33,174 nucleotides of DNA from NCBI GenBank assembly GCA_948472605.1, contig CAOKUH010000002.1, forward strand, positions 1-33,174. The letters are read 5' to 3'. Under the pieces are notes generated by a model. It did no database searches and was not told where the DNA came from. It saw only the letters and a list, made by a program, of their open reading frames with translations. The position numbers and the translations under genes were made by a program. Every line of letters begins with the position of its first letter. The first letter of the stretch is position 1. Positions 3,722 to 25,849 of the stretch are shown one piece after another. This DNA is from an uncultured Mycoplasmatota bacterium (lineage in GTDB: Bacteria; Bacillota_I; Bacilli_A; RF39; UBA660).

Positions 3722-6625
3722 ATGTATGTTCCACTTAAAATAACTACTGATTATACTTTATTAAAAAGTATGATAAAAATTGATGACTTAATAAAATTCT
3801 CTTTGGAAAATAAAATTGAAGCATTAGGGATATGTGATGAGAACTTATCAGGAGTGATGGAGTTTTATAATAAATGTTTAGAAAATAATATAAAGCCAAT
3901 AATTGGGTTAGAAATAGTAATTGAAGAGTTGTCCATTTATTTATATGCAAAAGATTATATAGGCTATCAAACCTTACTTAAATTAAATACAATTAGTGGA
4001 GAAAGAATAAATTTAGATGATTTAAGAAAATATAGCGATAATGTTTTAGTAATTTTACCATACAAATCTATATCTTTTTATAGTAAATTAAATAATATTT
4101 ATGAAGATATTTATTTAGGCTATCAAACAGAGATAGAAAAAGCATCTTGTTTATTAATCTCTTCTAATATAGTTTTTATAAATAATATTTGTGCATTAAA
4201 AAAGGAAGATACTAGCTATTTGAACTATTTAAATATGATTAGGGAAGATACAAAGATAAATGATTATACTTTTAAAAATTATGATGTAAATAGTTTTATT
4301 CTGGATATTTCTTTAGACGATGAAAAAAAGATAAATGAAGTAGCAAATTTATTAAATGTTGTGATACCAAAGTATAACTTGCATGTTCCTACATATAATG
4401 AAGAAATAGAAGATTCTTTTGCCTATTTATGTAATTTAACGAAAAAGGGACTTAGTAAAAGATTAAATGATAATGTTTTAGAAAGTTATACTAAACGTTT
4501 AGAATATGAATTAGATGTTATAAAAAAAATGGGTTTTGTAGATTACATTTTAATAGTTTATGATTACGTTTTGTTTGCTAAAAAAAATAATGTATTTGTT
4601 GGTCCTGGAAGAGGAAGTGCAGCAGGATCATTAGTTTGTTATACTCTAGGAATAACCGATATTGATCCTTTAAAATATAATTTATTATTTGAAAGATTTT
4701 TAAATTCGGAACGAATAACTATGCCTGATATTGATATAGACTTTGAAAATACAAAAAGGGGAGAAGTAATTCAGTATATAAAATCGCGTTATGGTAAAGA
4801 TAAAGTGGCTTCAATATTAACATTTGCCACTTTAAAAAGTAAATTAGTAATTAGAGAAATAGCGAGAGTTTTAGATTATAATGATAAAGATTTAGAAATT
4901 TTGGTAAAAGAAATATCTTCGACGATGAATTTAGAAGAGAATCTGAAACAAAATAATGTTTTAGCTAAATTGACCAATAAAGATTTAAAAAAAATATATA
5001 AGATTGCTTTGAAATTAGAGGGTTTAAAAAAGAATATTTCAACTCATGCAGCAGGTGTTGTTATATCTAATACTCCTTTAGAAACACTTATTCCTATTAT
5101 TCAGATAAATGATACAACATTAACTGGTATAACAATGGAATATTTAGAAGAATTAGGTCTTCTAAAAATGGATTTATTAGCTATAAAAAATTTAACTATT
5201 ATTGCTAATATTTTAGAATTAATAAAAAAAGATACGGGAAAAAATATTGCATTAAATAAAATTGATTTAAATGACCAACAAGTAATAAATTTATTTACTA
5301 AAGCAGATACTACAGGGATATTTCAATTTGAAAGTAATGGAATGCGTAATTTTTTACAAAAATTAAAGCCTCGTAACTTTAATGACTTAATTGCATCTCT
5401 TGCTCTTTATCGACCAGGTCCTATGGATAATATTGGCACCTTTATTAAAAGAAAAGAAGGTTTGGAAAAAATAGATTATTTAGTTCCATCATTAGAGCCA
5501 ATCTTAAAAGAAACAGAGGGAATTATTGTATATCAAGAACAAGTAATGCAAATATTAGTAACTATTGGAAGTTATAGTTTTGCTGAGGCTGATCTTGTAA
5601 GAAGGGCTATGAGTAAAAAGAAAAAAGATGTGATGGCTTTAGAACGAGATAAATTTATTAAGCGAGCAATAAAAAATGGATATAAAAAAGAGGTGAGTGA
5701 AAAACTATTTAATTATATTTTAAAGTTTGCAGGATATGGCTTTAATAAATCTCATTCAGTATCTTATGCTTTAATTGGTTATCAGATGGCCTTTTTAAAA
5801 GTTAAATTTCCCAAATATTTCATAACAAATTTACTTAATATGAGTATTGCATCCGAGGCTAAAACAAAAGAATATTTAATAGAAGCTAAACGCCATAATT
5901 TAAATATTATTCATCCCGATATAAATATTAGTTATTATGATTATGTAATAAGAGGTAATGATTTAGTCTTACCTTTATCTATCATTAAAGGGATAAATAG
6001 AATAACTATCGAAAATATAATAGATGAAAGAACAAAAAATGGTGAATTTTTAGACTTTGTTTCTTTTATTAAAAGAATGTATAATAAAAATATAAATGAA
6101 AAAATAATAATTATATTAATAAATGCAGGAGTATTTTCTAATTTTGCTAATAAAACAACTTTAAAAGAAAACTTAAGTATAGTTTTAAACTATGCATCAA
6201 TTGCATCAGAAATAGACTCACCATTAATAATGCCTCCTGTATTAAAAGAATATGAAGAAAATGAAATAGAACATGCTTTAGAACTAGAAAGTTTTGGATT
6301 TTATATAACTAATCATCCTACTAGTGTCTATCATGATAATAGTTTGACTAAATTAAATAATATAGAAAATTCTTTTGATAAATATATAAAATGTATAGTT
6401 CTTATCGAAACAATTAAAAGAACTAAAACAAAAAATAATGAAGATATGGCTTTTATTGCAGCAAGTGATGAAACAGGAATTTCTAATTTCGTCGTCTTTA
6501 ATCGCCAGATAAGATTGTTAGATAATTTAAAACCTAAAGATATAGTTATGATTCAGGGAAGAGTAACAAAAAGATTTGATAAATATCAAATAAATGTTAA
6601 TAATATAATAAAAAATAAAAAGTAG
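3722..6625 (+). CDS. dnaE: DNA polymerase III alpha subunit, DnaE type
   Basis: DnaE blocks are GPGRGSAAGSLVCYTLGITDIDPL, MPDIDIDF, HAAGVVIS, GLLKMDLLAIKNL and FNKSHSVSYA, with a C-terminal OB-like segment. The ATG at 3722 is preceded by a GGGGGAGGG RBS. The TTG at 3668 in the ORF track is an upstream extension. Confidence 0.95.
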   Translation: MYVPLKITTDYTLLKSMIKIDDLIKFSLENKIEALGICDENLSGVMEFYNKCLENNIKPIIGLEIVIEELSIYLYAKDYIGYQTLLKLNTISGERINLDDLRKYSDNVLVILPYKSISFYSKLNNIYEDIYLGYQTEIEKASCLLISSNIVFINNICALKKEDTSYLNYLNMIREDTKINDYTFKNYDVNSFILDISLDDEKKINEVANLLNVVIPKYNLHVPTYNEEIEDSFAYLCNLTKKGLSKRLNDNVLESYTKRLEYELDVIKKMGFVDYILIVYDYVLFAKKNNVFVGPGRGSAAGSLVCYTLGITDIDPLKYNLLFERFLNSERITMPDIDIDFENTKRGEVIQYIKSRYGKDKVASILTFATLKSKLVIREIARVLDYNDKDLEILVKEISSTMNLEENLKQNNVLAKLTNKDLKKIYKIALKLEGLKKNISTHAAGVVISNTPLETLIPIIQINDTTLTGITMEYLEELGLLKMDLLAIKNLTIIANILELIKKDTGKNIALNKIDLNDQQVINLFTKADTTGIFQFESNGMRNFLQKLKPRNFNDLIASLALYRPGPMDNIGTFIKRKEGLEKIDYLVPSLEPILKETEGIIVYQEQVMQILVTIGSYSFAEADLVRRAMSKKKKDVMALERDKFIKRAIKNGYKKEVSEKLFNYILKFAGYGFNKSHSVSYALIGYQMAFLKVKFPKYFITNLLNMSIASEAKTKEYLIEAKRHNLNIIHPDINISYYDYVIRGNDLVLPLSIIKGINRITIENIIDERTKNGEFLDFVSFIKRMYNKNINEKIIIILINAGVFSNFANKTTLKENLSIVLNYASIASEIDSPLIMPPVLKEYEENEIEHALELESFGFYITNHPTSVYHDNSLTKLNNIENSFDKYIKCIVLIETIKRTKTKNNEDMAFIAASDETGISNFVVFNRQIRLLDNLKPKDIVMIQGRVTKRFDKYQINVNNIIKNKK

Positions 6626-6640: not shown

Positions 6641-9600
6641 ATGAATGAAGAATTAAAACGTTTTTTTAATAGTATTTTATATACTCCTAAAGAAGATATA
6701 TATACAAATGCAGAAGTAAAAAAAGTTATATATATAAAACAAAAAGACACTTATGAAGTGCATTTAAATATTCTAGATGTTTTACCAATGAATGAAGTAA
6801 TTGAACTTTTTAATCATGCTAAAGAAGGTATAAAAAAAGAAAAGAAATGTATGATACGTCTTAATTATCAAAATGTTACTTCTAAAGATGTTTTAAATTA
6901 TTTAAAAGAATTAATAAATGAATTAATATCTAAAAGACCATCTTTAGTAAATTTAAAAGATGCTAAGTTAAGTATTGATGATGAAATTATTACGATAGAA
7001 GTAGGAACAAAATTAGAAAGTTTAGAAGTAAAAAAAGAAGCTAAATGGTTAACTAATAAATTATTTATATATGGTTTAGGAGAATATGAAATAACAAGTA
7101 TTTTAAATGAAGAGTTGAATAAACAAGTAAAGGAAGATATTGAAAAATCTTATATTAATGAAATACCAATAATTGAAAATAATTCTAATAAAGAGGAAAG
7201 TTCTATTGAAGGGGATGTCACAACTATTAGTAATATAATTGGAGAAATACCAAAAGTTATAATTGAGGCATATATCTTTGGAATAGAAGAAAAAGAGTTT
7301 GAGAAAACTAATTTGATTACTTTAAAAATCAGTGATAAAACTAATAGTTTAATTGCGAAAATGTTTAAAAGAGATAAGAGTGATTTTAAAAATACTTTGA
7401 AGCAGTTAAAAGAAGGAAATTGGTATCGTTTTCAAGGTAAAGTTGAATTTGATACTTTTAGTAAAGATCATGTTTTAAGTATTAGAAAATTCGAAAGTAT
7501 ACCTAGTAAAGAAGAAATAACGAAAGAATTAACTGATAATCCTAGAGTAGAATTACATGCTCATACAATGATGAGTGCTATGGATGGGGTTATTGAAGCT
7601 AAAGCTCTTGTTAAACATGCAATCAAAATGGGTCAGAAATCAATAGCTGTAACAGATCATAATTGTTGTCAAAGTTTTCCTGAATTATATCATGCTGTTT
7701 GTGATAATAATAAAGGTAAAGAAGGTAGTGATCGATTTAAAGTATTATATGGTGTAGAGATAAATGTAGTAAATGATGATGTAGATATAATATTTAATAA
7801 TAAAACTTATAATTTGCTAGAAGATACTTTTGTTGTATTCGATACAGAAACCACTGGTTTTTATGCTGGCTCTGATCAAATGATAGAAATTGGGGCTGTA
7901 AAAATAAAAAATGGAGAGATAATTGAAAGATTTGATGAATTAATTGATCCTCATCGTCCTATTCCTAAAAAAATAACTGAATTAACTTTTATAACAGATG
8001 AAATGTTAAGTGGTTGTGATAATGAAGAAAATGTTACAAAGAGATTTCTAGAATGGGTAGGGGATTTACCTTTAATTGCTCATAATGCTAAATTTGATAT
8101 TTCATTCATGAAAGCTGCTTGTAATAAATATAATTTAAAGGAATTTTCTTATACTGTTTTAGATACGATGAGTATAGCTCGTATGTTGCATCCAGAATGG
8201 CCTAATCATAAATTACAAACTTTAACTAAAAAACTTGATATTCCTTGGGATGAAGATAAACATCATAGAGCAGATTATGATGCTGAGGGTACAGCTTTAG
8301 CTTATTATAAAATGGCCAAATCTTTGTATGACCAAAATATAAGCACAACAGATGAATTATTAGCAAATATTGATATTGAATCATTGATTAAATTTTCTTA
8401 TCCTTTTCATGCAACAGCAATAGCTAAAAATAGAGAAGGCTTAAAGAATTTATTTAAAATAATATCTCTTGCTAATACTAAATATTTATATAAAAATGAA
8501 CAACCAAAAATTCCTCGTAAAGAATTTAATGAGCTTAGAGAAGGATTACTTATAGGCTCTGGATGTATTAATGGCGAAATATTTGACAAAGCTAAAGGCT
8601 TAGAAGATGAAGAATTAGTTAATATGATGAATTTTTATGATTATATTGAAGTTCAACCAGTTAGTGCATTCTCTCATTTAATTGGACCAGAGGCTAGATT
8701 TTTAACTACTAATGAAGCTGAAAATTATTTAAGTAGAATAATTAGAGTAGGTAAAGAAGCTGGTAAGCCAGTTGTTGTAACAGGAGATGTTCATAATTTA
8801 AAAAAGGAAGATAAAATTTATCGTGAAATCATTATTAACCAAAAATTCAATGGTAAATTACATCCTTTAAAACGTAGAGGAATAGAAGTGCCTAATCAGT
8901 ATTTAAAAACTACAGAAGAAATGATGGAAGATTTTTCATTTTTAGATGAAGAGATTAGGAAAGAAATAATTATTGATAATACTAATAAAATTGCTGATAT
9001 GGTAGAAGAAATAGAAGTTATTATTGATACTCCTAATCCTTTTGCTCCTAGAATTCCCAATTCTGTTATGACTATGACAGAGCTTGTTTATAGTAAAGCG
9101 GATGAATTATATGGGAATCCTTTACCCTTAAATATCGAAGAACGTTTGGCCAAAGAGTTATATGGGGAAAGTATTATTAATGCTTGTAAAAGCGAAGAAC
9201 GTGATGAGGTTATGGCATTTAAGTTAGTTCATGACATCATTTTAAAAGGTAAAGAAGCTGTAAAAGATATGGTGAAAAAACATTTAAGTGAAGATGATAT
9301 AGCTGATAAAACTTTAGAGGAAATAGATAAATTAGCTTATAAAAATTTAGGTGGTATTATTGGAGCTAATTATGATGTTATTTATCTTATTGCCCAAAAA
9401 TTAGTTAAGCATTCAAATGATGAAGGGTTTTTAGTAGGATCACGTGGTTCTGTTGGGTCATCTTTTGTTGCTAATATGATGGGGATAACTGAGGTTAATA
9501 GTATGCCTGCTCATTATCGTTGTCCAAAATGTAAAATGAGTATTTTTAATGACGATGAAAACAAAGCTTTAGGTATTACTTATTCTTGTGGGTTCGATTT

Positions 9601-22211: not shown

Positions 22212-22870
22212 AGATTGATATATTAACCCTTTTTCCAGGAATGTTTGAAGGTTTCTTAAATGAATCTATTATTAAAAGGGCTATAGATAAAAAAGTTGTA
22301 GAGATAAACCTTGTTAATTTTCGCGATTTTTCTAAATTAAATAATAGTCAAGTGGATGATACACCATATGGAGGAGGTTCGGGGATGGTTTTGATGCCTG
22401 GACCAATTGTCGATGCTATAGATGCCTATAGAAAGCCTTTTACAAAAGTAATACTCATGTGTCCTCAAGGTAAGGTATATAATGAACGAAAAGCTCATGA
22501 ATTAAAAGAAGAGAAACATATAATTTTAGTTTGTGGCCATTATGAAGGTTTTGATGAAAGAATTAGAGAATTTGTCGATGAAGAAATAAGTATAGGTGAT
22601 TATATCTTAACTGGGGGAGAAATACCTGCTATGGTTGTAAGTGATAGTATTATAAGATTATTAGATGGTGTTATAAAAAAAGAATCTTATTTAGAAGAGT
22701 CATTTACTAATAATCTGCTTGATTATCCAGTTTATACTAAGCCAAGAAATTTTAGAGGATTTAAAGTTCCTGATATCTTGCTTAGTGGAGATCATAAGAA
22801 AATAGATGAATGGCGTAAAAGCGAACAACTGAAAAAAACCGAACAAAAAAGAATTGATTTATTAAAGTAG
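22208..22870 (+). CDS. trmD: tRNA (guanine37-N1)-methyltransferase TrmD
   Basis: MKIDILTLFPGMF, DDTPYGGGSGMVL, LVCGHYEGFDERI and SIGDYILTGGEIPAMV. Confidence 0.97.
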   Translation: MKIDILTLFPGMFEGFLNESIIKRAIDKKVVEINLVNFRDFSKLNNSQVDDTPYGGGSGMVLMPGPIVDAIDAYRKPFTKVILMCPQGKVYNERKAHELKEEKHIILVCGHYEGFDERIREFVDEEISIGDYILTGGEIPAMVVSDSIIRLLDGVIKKESYLEESFTNNLLDYPVYTKPRNFRGFKVPDILLSGDHKKIDEWRKSEQLKKTEQKRIDLLK

Positions 22871-22880
22871 GGTGAAATTT

Positions 22881-23330
22881 ATGGAAAATTATATAATAAA
22901 AAAACGTAATAAAAATAAAAAGATAAGCAAATTCGATTTTGAAGAAACAGGATATGTTTTTAAACCAAATATTAAAAGTAAAAACTTAATTGAAATAACT
23001 AATTTGTCTATTTTAAATGTTGAATTGACTAATGTTATTTTAAAGAAAAAATTAGATAAATCTTTTCGTAAATTAGCAAGAATTATTTTAAGTGTTTTGA
23101 AAGATGAAGAAAGTAATAGTGGAGACATTCTTATTGCTTTAGATGAATTAGCTAAAGAAAAAAGTATTATTACTAGAAAGTATAAAGAATATCTAAAAAA
23201 AGAAGAAAGAGATAAATATTTAAAAAGATTAAATCTTTTAGAAGCGCAATTAAAAGAAAAGTTATTTTATTTGAATTTGATAGAAGAAAGAAAAAGAGCT
23301 GAAACTATGGAAAAAGGTCATAGTAGGTAA
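22881..23330 (+). CDS. hypothetical Lys/Glu-rich, probably coiled-coil protein
   Basis: ORF immediately after trmD. The ATG at 22881 has a GGGTGA RBS-like sequence 6 nt upstream (the ORF-track GTG at 22872 is the alternative). No recognisable motif. Confidence 0.55.
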   Translation: MENYIIKKRNKNKKISKFDFEETGYVFKPNIKSKNLIEITNLSILNVELTNVILKKKLDKSFRKLARIILSVLKDEESNSGDILIALDELAKEKSIITRKYKEYLKKEERDKYLKRLNLLEAQLKEKLFYLNLIEERKRAETMEKGHSR

Positions 23331-23429
23331 TAATTATAGACATATTTAAAAGTTTATGCTATATTATGAATGCATAAGTATTATGCTATGCAAAATTGCA
23401 TATAATATTAATGCTACTAAGTAGCAATA

Positions 23430-23545
23430 AAAAAAGTGGTGAATCCAGCCATTAAATTGGAACTTAAAAAAGCGGTGAATCCAGCCATTAAATTGGAACT
23501 TAAAAAAGCGGTGAATCCAGCCATTAAATTGGAACTTAAAAAAGT
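23430..23545 (+). ncRNA. toxI: ToxI-like type III antitoxin RNA: 3 full + 1 partial tandem 36-nt repeats
   Basis: Exact 36-nt period: copies at 23430-23465, 23466-23501 and 23502-23537, with an 8-nt partial copy at 23538-23545. The unit is AAAAAAG(T/C)GGTGAATCCAGCCATTAAATTGGAACTT, and only one substitution (T in copy 1, C in copies 2 and 3) was seen. The array is noncoding and sits directly upstream of a terminator and a ToxN-family gene. Confidence 0.85.
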
Positions 23546-23580
23546 AAGATTAGAGACTCAACTCTAATCTTTAGTTATTT
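23546..23580 (+). terminator. hairpin terminator/attenuator between the repeat array and toxN
   Basis: 10-bp stem AAGATTAGAG (23546-23555) / CTCTAATCTT (23562-23571) with a 6-nt loop, followed by the interrupted T tract TAGTTATTT. A weak tail fits a leaky terminator, as described for ToxIN loci. Confidence 0.7.
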
Positions 23581-23605
23581 ATGATGGGAAAAGGGTTGAT
23601 ATAAA

Positions 23606-24115
23606 ATGATATTTAATTTAAAAATCGTTCAAGTAAATTCAGATTATTGTGATTATTTAAGAAAATTTGATAATCGTGTATCTTATAATAAATATGAAAA
23701 AGAATTAAGACCATTTGTGGGAATATTATTTAAAATAGATTGTTATGAATATTTTGCTCCATTATCAAGCCCTAAAAATAAACATAAAAAAATGAAAAAT
23801 ACAATTGATTTTCTTAAAATAAAAAATGGCGAACTTGGAGCTGTTAATTTTAATAATATGATACCAGTTTATGAAAAAAATTATTCTTTGATCAATTTAA
23901 ATAGAGAAAGTTTAACAAAAACAGAGTTTAAATATTGTAAATTATTAAAAGAACAATTATCTTGGTTAAATGAAAACTATGAGCAAGTAAAAAATAAATC
24001 TTCAAAACTATATAAATTATATATTGAAAAAAAATTATCTAATAATATAAAATCAAGATGTTGTAATTTTAAATTATTAGAAGAAAAATGTTTAGAATAT
24101 AATAATTATAAATAA
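23606..24115 (+). CDS. toxN: ToxN/AbiQ family type III toxin endoribonuclease
   Basis: 169 aa. Recalled similarity to Pectobacterium ToxN: YFAPLSSPKNKH vs YLAPLTSPKKWH, CNFKLLEEK vs CNFSLLEEK, and N-terminal ..SDYCDYLRKFDNRV.. vs ..SKYIEYLKEFDDKV.. Size and genetic context (repeats plus terminator upstream) also match. Confidence 0.9.
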   Translation: MIFNLKIVQVNSDYCDYLRKFDNRVSYNKYEKELRPFVGILFKIDCYEYFAPLSSPKNKHKKMKNTIDFLKIKNGELGAVNFNNMIPVYEKNYSLINLNRESLTKTEFKYCKLLKEQLSWLNENYEQVKNKSSKLYKLYIEKKLSNNIKSRCCNFKLLEEKCLEYNNYK

Positions 24116-24120
24116 AAAAT

Positions 24121-24149
24121 TTGCATTATTGTAGTTTTTTTGTTATAAT
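24121..24149 (+). promoter_or_regulatory. sigma-A promoter for rplS-lepB
   Basis: TTGCAT (24121-24126), 17-nt spacer, TATAAT (24144-24149) preceded by TGt (extended -10). Confidence 0.6.
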
Positions 24150-24235
24150 ATTTTTGCTTTTTAAGCATGTAATCCGCTAAAAAGGAGTTTTATGATTACA
24201 GAAGATATAATTTTTTTAAGAAAGGATGTATGATT

Positions 24236-24598
24236 ATGGCTAATTTAGTCGACAAAATTAATAAAAAGCATATGAAACCAAACATTCCTGAATTCCGTGT
24301 TGGAGATATTGTAAGAGTTGATGTTTGGGTAAAAGAAGGAAAAAAAGAAAGAATACAAGCATTTGAAGGTATTGTAATTGCCCGTAAAGGTTCAGGAGTA
24401 TCTGAAACATTTTCTGTACGTAAAAAATCTGGTAGTATTGGGGTAGTTAGAGTATTTCCAATTAATACTCCAACAATTGATAAAATTACAGTTGTTAAAA
24501 AAGGTATGGTACGTCGTGCTAAACTTAACTTTATTAAAAATATGCGTAAAGAATATAAAGTTAAAGAAAGAAATAGCACAGTTAAAGGAGCAGAATAA
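24236..24598 (+). CDS. rplS: 50S ribosomal protein L19 (bL19)
   Basis: PEFRVGDIVRVDVWVKEGKKERIQAFEGIVIARKGSGVSETFSVRK...GVVRVFPINTPTIDKITVVKKGMVRRAKL is typical bL19. The ATG at 24236 has 9-nt spacing from AAAGGA. The alternative ATG at 24230 (ORF track) would add MI. Confidence 0.95.
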   Translation: MANLVDKINKKHMKPNIPEFRVGDIVRVDVWVKEGKKERIQAFEGIVIARKGSGVSETFSVRKKSGSIGVVRVFPINTPTIDKITVVKKGMVRRAKLNFIKNMRKEYKVKERNSTVKGAE

Positions 24599-25351: not shown

Positions 25352-25849
25352 ATGAATGAAAATTATGAAAAAAAATTATATGGACTAAATGATATTTTTA
25401 ATTCTAAAGAAAAATATACAATATCATTTCAACAAAATGGTTATATTTGGGACTATGAAGAATTAATTACTTTATTAGAAGAGGTTAAAAATATAAGTAA
25501 AAGTGATAAGGAATATTGTTTAGGAACATTATTTGTTGTTAAAAATAATGATGGCTACGAAGTTATTGAAGGTCATCAAAGATTTATAAATATTTATATA
25601 TTATTAAATTGTTTAGGGATAAATACTAATAGTATTTTAAAATTTACTTATTGTGAAAAGTCTAATTATACTTTAAATAATATAAAAAGTATAATATCTA
25701 GTATGGAATTAAATGATGATACTGATGAAAACATTTTAAGTACGATAAAAATTTTTAATCAAGAGATAGTTAAAAAAGATTTTAATAAAGAAGAATTCAA
25801 GAAAAAATTAGAAAAAACAGTTGTTTGTTTAGTTTTAGTATCTGCTTAG
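25352..25849 (+). CDS. DUF262-like (ParB/GmrSD N-terminal nuclease-related) protein, short and probably truncated/degenerate
   Basis: YTISFQQNGYIWDYEELITLLEEV and YEVIEGHQRFINIYILL follow the DUF262 pattern (Y.IP.YQR.Y.W ... L..D; IIDGQQRLTT), but with QR->QQ and DGQQR->EGHQR substitutions. At 165 aa it lacks any C-terminal (DUF1524/HNH-like) part. Confidence 0.5.
   Translation: MNENYEKKLYGLNDIFNSKEKYTISFQQNGYIWDYEELITLLEEVKNISKSDKEYCLGTLFVVKNNDGYEVIEGHQRFINIYILLNCLGINTNSILKFTYCEKSNYTLNNIKSIISSMELNDDTDENILSTIKIFNQEIVKKDFNKEEFKKKLEKTVVCLVLVSA

What the first reader, a model, noticed from the sequence alone, without database searches (positions are those of the whole stretch)
23331..24115. Type III toxin-antitoxin (ToxIN/AbiQ-like) module wedged between trmD and rplS
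Seen: the order is three exact-period 36-nt direct repeats plus an 8-nt partial copy (23430-23545), then a 10-bp hairpin with a weak T tail (23546-23580), then 25 nt later a 169-aa ORF. The ORF carries stretches I recognise from ToxN/AbiQ (YFAPLSSPKNKH, CNFKLLEEK, N-terminal ..YLRKFDNRV..). Established: ToxIN of Pectobacterium atrosepticum has this same order. Its tandem 36-nt ToxI repeats are processed by ToxN into units that inhibit it, a terminator sets the RNA:toxin ratio, and toxN follows. The family provides abortive-infection phage defence (AbiQ in Lactococcus). The unit length here is also 36 nt. Each unit starts with an A6 run and contains UAAAUU, so A-rich ToxN-type cleavage sites are available. 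Inference: this is an intact type III TA / Abi system. Its position is unusual because it sits inside the highly conserved rimM-trmD-rplS ribosomal cluster, and rplS has its own near-consensus promoter immediately after toxN (24121-24149). The standard ORF track shows only the toxin, and the antitoxin is invisible to protein-based annotation.
Basis: partly seen in the sequence, partly recalled or inferred. Interest (0 to 1): 0.75.

Follow-up and report, generated by a model that had tools for sequence, protein, structure and literature searches.

The report
ToxIN RNA-antitoxin module beside rplS
This is an intact toxin-antitoxin cassette of the well-known ToxIN/AbiQ type, in which a small repeated RNA holds an RNA-cutting toxin in check; it was dropped as a 789-bp unit in front of a ribosomal-protein gene in an uncultured gut bacterium, and it is real and cleanly built but ordinary in kind.

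Summary
Window 23331-24119 is a self-contained 789-bp type III toxin-antitoxin cassette of the toxIN family. It consists of a promoter, a ~55-nt leader, three 36-nt repeats plus an 8-nt partial copy, a 10-bp terminator hairpin, and a 169-aa ToxN/AbiQ endoribonuclease gene.

The toxin matches Pfam ToxN_toxin over its full length (E 1e-49). Its model superposes on all four solved ToxN/AbiQ structures (TM 0.75-0.81). It keeps the Ser-Ser-Pro-Lys active-site motif and is under purifying selection (dN/dS 0.15-0.40).

The repeats are non-coding. In about 30 related loci the period is 34-40 nt, and two crossing helices (an H-type pseudoknot, as in ToxI) co-vary. The terminator hairpin co-varies too.

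Related species show the native order trmD-orf149-rplS, with the orf149-rplS junction empty or holding other small genes. The cassette is therefore a lineage-specific insertion just upstream of the conserved rplS promoter.

Toxicity, RNA processing and phage defence are inferred, not shown. It is a new member of a known kind, and interest is modest.

The parts
23337..23365 (+). Cassette promoter P1: -35 TAGACA (23337-23342), 17-nt spacer, extended -10 TGcTATATT (-10 hexamer 23360-23365)
   Evidence: Consensus scan gives 10 of 12 matches with a TG. The counterpart TTGAYW-17-TGnTATATT sits at the same distance from the array in clade relatives, including ones with only 52-57% ToxN identity. No transcript data.
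23372..23430 (+). Leader with three small hairpins: h1 23372-23386, h2 23387-23402, h3 23408-23430. It contains TTGCATATAAT (23396-23406), a possible second, proximal -10.
   Evidence: Folds at -15.6 kcal/mol, z = -2.2. The sequence is conserved in L029, L033, L034 and L023, but only 2 of 18 pairs show compensatory change, so the structure is not proven. The same TTGCATATAAT motif forms the -10 region of the Bacillus plasmid toxIN promoter.
23430..23465 (+). toxI repeat unit 1 (36 nt, one mismatch)
23466..23501 (+). toxI repeat unit 2 (36 nt). Predicted pseudoknot: helix A 23474-23476 with 23484-23486; helix B 23480-23483 with 23494-23497. A-run 23466-23471 is the predicted ToxN processing site.
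   Evidence: Covariation. Layout matches the ToxI pattern described in PMC3401426.
23502..23537 (+). toxI repeat unit 3 (36 nt)
23538..23545 (+). Partial unit AAAAAAGT. It supplies the A-run that bounds the 3' end of unit 3.
   Evidence: A partial unit ending in AAAAAAG precedes the hairpin in nearly all related loci.
23546..23581 (+). Terminator-like hairpin (10-bp stem, 6-nt loop, 23546-23571) with a weak T-rich tail
   Evidence: Conserved in 15 loci, with compensatory changes in 7 of 10 pairs.
23590..23595 (+). Shine-Dalgarno-like AAAGGG, 10 nt before the toxN ATG. The 34-nt spacer leaves no room for a separate toxN promoter.
   Evidence: Read from the sequence. Relatives with long spacers carry a TATAAT plus AAGGAGG here.
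23606..24115 (+). toxN: 169-aa ToxN/AbiQ-family endoribonuclease toxin
   Evidence: Pfam 9.7e-50. PADLOC AbiQ 1.4e-38. PDB by sequence: 4ATO 1.9e-26, 2XD0 3.9e-19, 7D8O 2.7e-17, 4GLK 6.6e-13. AF2 pLDDT 89.8. Foldseek TM 0.75-0.81 to those four only. dN/dS 0.15-0.40.
22872..23330 (+). Left flank, not part of the cassette: resident lineage-specific ORF (149 aa from the second ATG) found between trmD and rplS in all relatives
24120..24229 (+). Right flank, not part of the cassette: native rplS promoter TTTGCA-18-TGTTATAAT (24120-24149) and conserved rplS leader
   Evidence: Present in relatives with an empty site; in L059 it lies 5 nt after the orf149 stop.

Best explanation
Window 23331-24119 is an intact, self-contained type III toxin-antitoxin cassette of the toxIN (ToxN/AbiQ) family. 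It was inserted between a resident ORF and the native rplS promoter.

Shown here: the toxin's family, fold and conservation; the repeat array; its conserved pseudoknot potential; the conserved terminator; and the insertion boundaries.

Inferred by homology with ToxIN of Pectobacterium, E. coli and B. thuringiensis, and with AbiQ:
- Promoter P1 drives one transcript. Most of it stops at the hairpin and a fraction reads through into toxN.
- ToxN cuts the precursor in the A-runs that flank every unit (four A-runs, three units). This releases 36-nt pseudoknotted RNAs.
- Each RNA bridges two ToxN monomers and blocks their active sites in a closed complex.
- When transcription is shut off, for example by phage infection, the labile RNA decays. 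Free ToxN then cleaves A-rich RNA and arrests the cell.

Because no terminator follows toxN, read-through transcripts should continue into rplS.
For: - Toxin family: Pfam ToxN_toxin E 9.7e-50, full length; PADLOC AbiQ.
- Solved relatives: 4ATO, 2XD0, 7D8O and 4GLK by sequence and by fold, TM 0.75-0.81, with the next hit at 0.40. Identity to ToxN_Bt is 37%.
- Active site: the equivalents of ToxN_Pa Thr52, Ser53 and Lys55 are Ser54, Ser55 and Lys57. Lys33 is Arg35, a substitution also seen in E. coli clusters.
- Selection: dN/dS 0.15-0.40 against 12 relatives.
- Array: three exact-period units, 0 expected by chance.
- Conservation: arrays of 2.1-4.7 units with periods of 34-40 nt (one distant relative, L040, has a 56-nt period) precede toxN in about 30 related loci.
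- Pseudoknot: 86.5% of cells paired against 33-62% in slid controls. Covariation score 0.317 against 0.152 in shuffles (0 of 500 reach it). 5 of 8 pairs carry double changes. A register-matched permutation gives 4 of 20000.
- Terminator: hairpin co-varies in 7 of 10 pairs.
- Homologous antitoxins: a Lactococcus plasmid toxIN unit shares its first 16 nt with the window's unit. Bacillus, C. botulinum and Fusobacterium units have the same layout.
- TA asymmetry: orphan arrays with toxN deleted exist (L048-L050), but none of the ~30 full-length toxN loci lacks a tandem array (most distant relative, L040, only a divergent 56-nt, 2.0-copy repeat).
- Insertion boundaries come from empty sites in relatives.
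Against: - No transcript, processing, toxicity or phage data exist for this locus or its clade.
- The T-tail of the terminator is weak (TAGTTATTTA).
- The -35 of P1 is imperfect (TAGACA).
- The Tyr29 equivalent is ambiguous in the alignment: Glu31 aligns and Tyr30 is adjacent.
- The register of the helix B 3' strand in the covariation alignment was chosen to maximise pairing, although the same optimisation was applied to the permutation control.
- Rfam gives no hit on the repeats and NCBIfam gives none on the toxin.
- ToxIN_Bt, the closest solved relative, showed no anti-phage activity in its native host (PMC5086642), so the defence role in particular is uncertain.
Confidence: 0.9

Rival explanations
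1. The same molecular machine, but its biological role is self-preservation (an addiction or stabilisation module, or a selfish element) rather than abortive-infection phage defence.
For: ToxIN_Bt gave plasmid retention but no anti-phage activity in its native host. ToxIN_Pa and CptIN_Er stabilise plasmids (PMC5086642; PMC4615649). The cassette is only 789 bp, has no neighbouring defence genes that belong to it, and is present in every contig of the species seen so far. No phage-borne mimic of the repeat or the toxin was found in IMG/VR.
Against: ToxIN_Pa, AbiQ and TenpIN do abort phage infection, including from chromosomal loci. A stabilising role is harder to justify for a chromosomal site between essential genes. 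A truncated GmrSD-type gene lies 1.2 kb downstream, and relatives sit in variable regions.
Confidence: 0.3
2. The cassette is an inactive, decaying remnant: a dead toxin or a non-functional array.
For: Decay does happen in this family. Frameshifted or fragmented toxN occurs in L036, L044 and L045, and toxN is deleted in L048-L050. The window's terminator tail and -35 are weak.
Against: The ORF is full length against the Pfam profile. The active-site motif is intact. dN/dS is 0.15-0.40. Identical protein is found in at least 8 metagenome assemblies. Units 2 and 3 are identical and unit 1 differs at one base.
Confidence: 0.05
3. The repeats are something other than an antitoxin: either the coding sequence of the 43-aa repeat peptide ORF at 23436-23567, or a regulatory leader of rplS.
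For: An ORF with a GTG start spans the array. The array lies upstream of rplS.
Against: Homologous arrays have periods of 34, 35, 37, 38 and 40 nt, which are not multiples of 3. Substitutions preserve base pairing rather than codons. The arrays always travel with toxN at unrelated genomic sites. rplS keeps its own conserved promoter and leader in genomes without the array.
Confidence: 0.01

Closest known systems
ToxIN_Bt of Bacillus thuringiensis plasmid pAW63 (PDB 4ATO) and its Bacillus mycoides plasmid homologues
   Same: Closest solved toxin: E 1.9e-26, 37% identity, TM 0.77. Same order of promoter, array, terminator and toxN. About 3 units that each begin with an A-run. Same pseudoknot layout, GGTG..TACC with GCCT..AGGC. 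Arg at the Lys33 position. Reported cleavage within a run of five A, which fits the window's A6 runs.
   Different: 34-nt rather than 36-nt unit, with a different stem-2 sequence. Plasmid-borne rather than chromosomal. Bt has PLTSRN where the window has PLSSPK.
AbiQ/antiQ of Lactococcus lactis (PDB 4GLK) and the Lactococcus plasmid ToxN/AbiQ loci (e.g. NZ_PP589698.1)
   Same: PADLOC files the ORF under AbiQ. The Lactococcus plasmid locus has a 36-nt unit, 3.1 copies, whose first 16 nt (AAAAAAGCGGTGAATC) are identical to the window's. Toxin identity is 41%. Ser occupies the catalytic Thr/Ser position, as in AbiQ Ser51.
   Different: Stem 2 is TCTC/GAGA rather than TCCA/TGGA. AbiQ proper is more distant (E 6.6e-13). 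It is carried on conjugative plasmids of a cultured host with demonstrated Abi activity.
ToxIN_Pa of Pectobacterium atrosepticum pECA1039 (PDB 2XD0/2XDD) and ToxIN_Ec (7D8O)
   Same: Paradigm of the family, also with a 36-nt unit. Same locus grammar, the same fold (TM 0.75-0.78) and the same TSPK-type active site.
   Different: 28% identity. 5.5 repeats. Cleavage at AA/AU or GAA/AU rather than inside an A-run. Gram-negative plasmids.
CptIN and TenpIN, the other two type III TA families
   Same: Same overall principle: a tandem RNA repeat antitoxin, a terminator, and an endoribonuclease toxin.
   Different: Different toxin families. CptN 4RMO matches the model only at TM 0.40. Their repeats are longer. 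This locus is not a member.

Membership tests
Type III TA, toxIN family (criteria of Blower et al. 2012, PMC3401426) | Toxin protein homologous to ToxN/AbiQ | tested here: met
   Pfam PF13958 at 169 bits against a cut-off of 25, profile positions 1-159 of 159. PADLOC AbiQ. PDB sequence hits. Fold TM 0.75-0.81 to 4ATO, 7D8O, 2XD0 and 4GLK.
Type III TA, toxIN family | Tandem array of direct nucleotide repeats upstream of the toxin gene on the same strand | tested here: met
   36 nt x 3.2 at 23430-23544; 0 expected by chance. Unit length falls within the 31-46 nt range of aligned ToxI sequences.
Type III TA, toxIN family | Short palindromic repeat (terminator) between the array and the toxin gene | tested here: met
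   10-bp hairpin at 23546-23571, -11 kcal/mol, z = -2.8. Conserved, with 7 of 10 pairs compensated. The T-tail is weak in this copy.
Type III TA, toxIN family | -35/-10 promoter positioned at the start of toxI (a preferred, not mandatory, criterion) | tested here: met
   TAGACA-17-TGcTATATT at 23337-23365, conserved in position among relatives. This is sequence-level evidence only; the start site is unmapped and a second -10-like motif exists at 23401-23406.
Type III TA, toxIN family | Repeat unit folds as an H-type pseudoknot: two crossing 3-4 bp stems, loop 1a-2a of 3-4 nt, loop 2a-1b of 1-2 nt, and a longer loop 1b-2b | tested here: met
   Stem 1 GGU/GCC. A 3-nt loop. Stem 2 UCC(A)/(U)GGA. 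A loop of 0-1 nt, then a loop of 7-8 nt. Covariation. Caveat: the alignment was registered by hand.
Type III TA, toxIN family | Active-site residues of ToxN (Pa numbering: Tyr29, Lys33, Thr52, Ser53, Lys55) | tested here: met
   Ser54, Ser55 and Lys57 align with Thr52, Ser53 and Lys55. Arg35 aligns with Lys33, a substitution known in E. coli clusters 4 and 5. The Tyr29 position is ambiguous (Tyr30/Glu31). R35, S55, P56 and K57 are at least 90% conserved in 37 sequences.
Type III TA, toxIN family | ToxN processes the precursor into single units and is inhibited by them; the toxin is growth-inhibitory | not testable with these tools
   Indirect support only. Every unit is flanked by A-runs. Toxin-deleted orphan arrays exist, but none of the ~30 full-length toxN loci lacks a tandem array (most distant relative, L040, only a divergent 56-nt, 2.0-copy repeat).
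Abortive-infection system (AbiQ/ToxIN_Pa sense) | Protects a population against phage by killing infected cells | not testable with these tools
   No data. The closest solved relative, ToxIN_Bt, showed no Abi in its native host.
Rfam RNA families | The array matches a curated RNA covariance model | tested here: not met
   No hit on the array at E <= 10 over 22800-24300, and no hit at gathering score over the whole window. No curated Rfam model recognises this antitoxin.

The most novel reading that the evidence does not exclude
The orf149-rplS junction of this gut lineage is an integrase-free hotspot where small cassettes are exchanged: empty, a 111/116-aa gene family, a 156-aa membrane protein, or toxIN. 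Placing toxIN there, co-oriented and with no terminator on either side, would wire it into the rimM-trmD and rplS transcription units. Read-through from the upstream translation-gene operon would add to ToxI supply, and toxN transcripts would run into rplS. The toxin:antitoxin balance would then track transcription of the translation machinery.
Probability: 0.2. Interest if true: 0.45.

Novelty: new member of a known kind. Interest (0 to 1): 0.3.

Why it matters
The finding adds a cleanly delimited chromosomal toxIN cassette from an uncultured, very AT-rich gut bacterium. It also shows that a large clade of such cassettes exists in gut metagenomes: 2,695 homologues at E <= 1e-5, with the closest annotated relative at only 45% identity.

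That clade provides natural covariation data for the ToxI pseudoknot and terminator, copy-number polymorphism (2.2 versus 3.2 units with an identical toxin), and toxin-deleted orphan arrays.

In practical terms, protein-based annotation reports only a lone toxin here. The antitoxin, the promoter and the terminator are invisible to it, and Rfam does not recognise the RNA.

None of this changes what is known about how type III systems work.

Tried and rejected
- **Rfam.** No hit on the array, either at E <= 10 over 22800-24300 or at gathering score over the whole window.
- **NCBIfam.** No model matches the toxin.
- **MAFFT alignment of units (A1).** The variable linker threw the 3' stem out of register, so it was unusable for helix B. 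It was replaced by a fixed-column, N-padded alignment (A2).
- **Longest-complement test.** This alignment-free measure was too noisy in AT-rich sequence. It was replaced by a position-specific test with register-matched controls.
- **Composition.** A composition profile cannot delimit the insert, because the whole region is 17-33% GC.
- **IMG/VR viral contigs.** No ToxN relative and no copy of the repeat unit, so no phage-borne mimic or phage origin was found.
- **Alternative occupants of the site.** No Pfam, PADLOC or PDB match.
- **Leader hairpins.** The sequence is conserved, but there is too little covariation to call an RNA structure.
- **Structure job.** It was rerun with a trimmed alignment.
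- **11-nt direct repeat flanking the cassette.** 0.6% of random window pairs match as well, and the right copy lies inside conserved toxN codons, so it is not treated as a target-site duplication.
- **Peptide-coding reading of the repeats.** Rejected on period and covariation.
Full report
**1. Observation**

- Tandem Repeats Finder reports one strong array at 23430-23544: period 36, 3.2 copies, 98% matches, score 223. This is by far the best of 61 rows in the window.
- A search for the 36-mer with up to three mismatches finds exactly three adjacent copies, at 23430-23465 (one mismatch), 23466-23501 and 23502-23537. None are found elsewhere and none are expected by chance.
- An 8-nt partial copy, AAAAAAGT, follows at 23538-23545.
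- A perfect 10-bp inverted repeat with a 6-nt loop occupies 23546-23571 and is followed by TAGTTATTTA. It folds at -11.0 kcal/mol, z = -2.8 against shuffles.
- The ORF at 23606-24115 encodes 169 aa.
- A promoter-like site TTTGCA-18-TATAAT, with a TG before the second hexamer, lies at 24120-24149.

**2. The toxin**

- The ORF matches Pfam ToxN_toxin (PF13958) at E 9.7e-50 over the whole profile, and the PADLOC AbiQ model at 1.4e-38.
- By sequence it hits only the four solved ToxN/AbiQ proteins: 4ATO of B. thuringiensis (1.9e-26), 2XD0 of Pectobacterium (3.9e-19), 7D8O of E. coli (2.7e-17) and 4GLK, AbiQ (6.6e-13). Identity to ToxN_Bt is 37%.
- An AlphaFold2 model built from 30 family members has mean pLDDT 89.8. 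It superposes on those same four structures at TM 0.75-0.81. The next hits are CptN at 0.40 and MazF at about 0.28.
- The ToxN_Pa active-site residues are Tyr29, Lys33, Thr52, Ser53 and Lys55 (PMC5086642). In the alignment the window has Ser54, Ser55 and Lys57 at the last three positions and Arg35 for Lys33.
- The Lys-to-Arg change also occurs in E. coli ToxN clusters 4 and 5 (PMC8860590). Ser at the Thr52 position is what AbiQ has. The Tyr29 position falls in a gapped stretch, where Tyr30 and Glu31 are the candidates.
- R35, S55, P56 and K57 are at least 90% conserved in 37 family members.
- dN/dS between the window gene and 12 relatives is 0.15-0.40.
- The identical protein occurs on contigs from at least eight metagenome assemblies.

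**3. The RNA**

A genome-collection scan returned 44 loci from uncultured gut Clostridia, Bacilli and "Tenericutes" MAGs, with ToxN at 40-77% identity. About 30 of them have a tandem array of 2.1-4.7 units ending 60-110 nt before toxN. The periods are 34-40 nt; one distant relative, L040, has a 56-nt period.

Most of these periods are not multiples of three. That excludes the 43-aa ORF that overlaps the window's array.

The units share one grammar:
- an A-run;
- GGYG;
- a 5-6-nt loop containing YCC-type bases;
- the complement of GGY;
- an A/U-rich linker;
- the complement of the loop core.

This is an H-type pseudoknot with the stem and loop spacing described for ToxI (PMC3401426). In the window's unit, helix A is G9-C21, G10-C20 and U11-G19. 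Helix B is U15-A32, C16-G31, C17-G30 and A18-U29.

The loop core and its partner change together across loci: UUCC/GGAA, GCCC/GGGC, CCUC/GAGG, CUUC/GAAG, UCCC/GGGA and GCCA/UGGC.

| Test | Result | Control |
|---|---|---|
| Permutation of 3' segments among nine loop-core classes, register re-optimised each time | Observed sum 32 | Mean 25.9, sd 1.4; reached in 4 of 20000 |
| Cells paired, fixed-column alignment of 52 distinct units | 86.5% | 33-62% with the 3' partner slid 1-3 columns |
| Covariation score | 0.317 | 0.152 in shuffles; 0 of 500 reach it |
| Pairs with changes on both sides | 5 of 8 | — |

The caveat is that I set the register of the helix B 3' strand to maximise pairing.

Annotated plasmid loci show the same design:

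| Source | Unit length | Feature |
|---|---|---|
| Bacillus plasmid | 34 nt | Stem 2 GCCU/AGGC |
| Lactococcus plasmid | 36 nt | First 16 nt identical to the window's unit; stem 2 UCUC/GAGA |
| C. botulinum plasmid | 38 nt | Stem 2 CCUC/GAGG |
| Fusobacterium plasmid | 37 nt | Same layout |

Rfam has no model that detects any of this.

**4. Terminator, promoter and leader**

- The hairpin after the array is conserved in 15 loci, with compensatory changes in 7 of 10 pairs.
- In the window only 34 nt separate it from the toxN ATG, so toxN can only be expressed by read-through. Several relatives with spacers of 90-120 nt carry an extra TATAAT plus AAGGAGG there.
- Upstream, TAGACA-17-TGcTATATT at 23337-23365 has a counterpart TTGAYW-17-TGnTATATT at the same distance from the array in relatives.
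- Between that promoter and the first A-run lies a leader that folds into three small hairpins: -15.6 kcal/mol, z = -2.2. The sequence is conserved even in loci with 52-57% ToxN identity. Only 2 of 18 pairs show compensatory change, so the structure is unproven.
- The leader contains TTGCATATAAT (23396-23406), the same motif that forms the -10 region of the Bacillus plasmid toxIN promoter. It may be a second, proximal promoter, but it has no recognisable -35 in the window.

**5. Context and insertion boundaries**

- The 152-aa ORF at 22872-23330 has no Pfam, PADLOC or NCBIfam match. It belongs to a family of about 50 proteins.
- In every relative examined it lies between trmD and rplS, in the order DUF2207, YgjP, SpoU, rimM, trmD, orf149, rplS, lepB. 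It is therefore resident and not part of the insertion.
- The junction between it and rplS varies:

| Loci | Content of the orf149-rplS junction |
|---|---|
| L053, L059, L067-L069 | Empty |
| L055, L056, L070 | A 111/116-aa gene (58% identical to each other) |
| L057, L058 | A 156-aa gene |
| Window, L001, L002, L005, L064 | toxIN |

- The rplS promoter and leader are conserved in all of them. In L059 the orf149 stop codon is 5 nt from the -35. The cassette is therefore 23331-24119, 789 bp.
- None of the 44 genomic toxN relatives has trmD or rplS within 4 kb, so the position is specific to this species.
- No terminator-like site lies between the orf152 stop and P1, or between the toxN stop and the rplS promoter. 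Read-through in and out of the cassette is therefore possible but untested.
- Within the species the array has 3.2 units (window, L001) or 2.2 units (L002, L005; and L064, inferred from its 239-nt orf149-toxN gap). The toxin is identical wherever it is complete on the contig.

**6. Comparative genetics**

Three loci (L048, L049, L050) retain promoter, leader, 2.2 units and terminator but have lost toxN down to its last ~19 codons. Others carry frameshifted toxN. None of the ~30 full-length toxN loci lacks a tandem array (most distant relative, L040, only a divergent 56-nt, 2.0-copy repeat). This asymmetry is what is expected if the protein is toxic and the array protects against it.

**7. Mechanism**

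Shown here: the family, the fold, the conservation, the array, the pseudoknot covariation, the terminator and the insertion boundaries.

Inferred from the characterised ToxIN and AbiQ systems:
- A single transcript is made, with partial termination at the hairpin.
- ToxN cleaves within the A-runs that bound each unit. There are four A-runs for three units. ToxN_Bt and AbiQ are reported to cut within runs of A.
- The processed pseudoknots assemble with ToxN into a closed, inactive complex.
- ToxN is released when the RNA is no longer replenished.

AAAAA occurs 17 times per kb on the window's + strand and 39 times per kb in toxN itself, so free toxin would have abundant targets. Whether the biological role is phage defence or self-maintenance cannot be decided here. 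ToxIN_Bt, the closest solved relative, showed no Abi in its native host.

**8. Comparison and novelty**

The locus meets every sequence-level criterion of Blower et al. (2012) for a toxIN-family locus. The closest annotated toxins are on C. botulinum plasmid p1 and phage D-1873 (45.5%), a Fusobacterium plasmid (44.8%), Lactococcus plasmids (41%) and Bacillus plasmids (39%). The gut clade is large, with 2,695 homologues at E <= 1e-5.

This is a new member of a known kind. The position next to rplS is explained by a variable junction and does not imply a new function.

**9. Verdict**

Interest is modest at 0.3. The most novel reading still open is transcriptional coupling of the cassette to the flanking translation genes at an integrase-free hotspot. 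I put that at about 0.2 probability.

Noticed in passing
L048:3700-4120, L049 (array 3835-3913), L050:3700-4120: Orphan toxI arrays. Promoter, leader, 2.2 repeat units and terminator are intact, but toxN is deleted down to its last ~19 codons (..RCCNFKLLEEKCLEYN). L048 and L049 carry a unit identical to the window's. The deletion junctions look microhomology-mediated by eye. None of the ~30 full-length toxN loci lacks a tandem array (most distant relative, L040, only a divergent 56-nt, 2.0-copy repeat).
   Followed up: partly
window 25352-25849: A 165-aa ORF between lepB and lepA that matches only the N-terminal domain of GmrSD (DUF262), Pfam 1.4e-12. Its PADLOC hits to HEC-06/Orf5 models of ~550-600 positions cover only their first ~90-135 positions. 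It is probably a truncated defence gene or a stand-alone domain.
   Followed up: no
window 23331-24119 versus L053:4450-4572, L059:4450-4531, L055:4450-4800, L057:4523-4993, L070:1713-2048: The orf149-rplS junction is a variable spot in this lineage. It is empty, or holds a 111/116-aa gene family (58% identical to each other, no Pfam, PADLOC or PDB match), a 156-aa gene with a hydrophobic, transmembrane-like N-terminal stretch (by eye), or toxIN. No integrase or transposase is nearby.
   Followed up: partly
window 22872-23330: A lysine-rich 149/152-aa ORF of unknown function lies between trmD and rplS in every relative examined. Its family has about 50 proteins and no Pfam, PADLOC or NCBIfam match.
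   Followed up: partly
window 24150-24229: The rplS 5' leader is conserved in all relatives, with stems GCUU/AAGC and UGUAAUC/GAUUACA around a variable loop. No Rfam family matches it at E <= 10. It may be a lineage-specific L19 autoregulatory leader.
   Followed up: no
window 23430-23545 versus L002:3114-3192, L005:1130-1208, L064 (gap 1765-2005): Copy-number polymorphism of the antitoxin array within one species: 3.2 units in the window and L001, and 2.2 units in L002 and L005 (and in L064, inferred from its 239-nt gap). The toxin is identical wherever it is complete on the contig.
   Followed up: yes
L031:4492-4580, L033:1472-1560, L034:4501-4590: A second toxI promoter or array starts immediately after the toxN stop codon in some relatives, so these are tandem toxIN cassettes.
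   Followed up: no
window 23372-23430: A ~55-nt leader with three small hairpins lies between the cassette promoter and the first repeat. Its sequence is conserved in distant relatives. It contains TTGCATATAAT, which is the -10 region of the Bacillus plasmid toxIN promoter. I found no description of such a leader in the ToxIN papers I read.
   Followed up: partly
window 23328-23338 and 24100-24110: An 11-nt direct repeat, TAATAATTATA, brackets the cassette. The left copy includes the orf152 stop codon and the right copy lies inside the last toxN codons. 31 of 5000 random window pairs match as well.
   Followed up: partly
L061-L063, about 7000-8900: In another lineage the toxIN cassette sits next to a diversity-generating-retroelement-like module (RVT_1 reverse transcriptase plus a bAvd-like gene).
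   Followed up: no
window 23546-23571, minus strand: Because the hairpin is preceded by the A-run of the partial repeat, it reads as a better intrinsic terminator on the minus strand (tail ACTTTTTTAA) than on the plus strand (tail TAGTTATTTA). No minus-strand gene converges on it.
   Followed up: no
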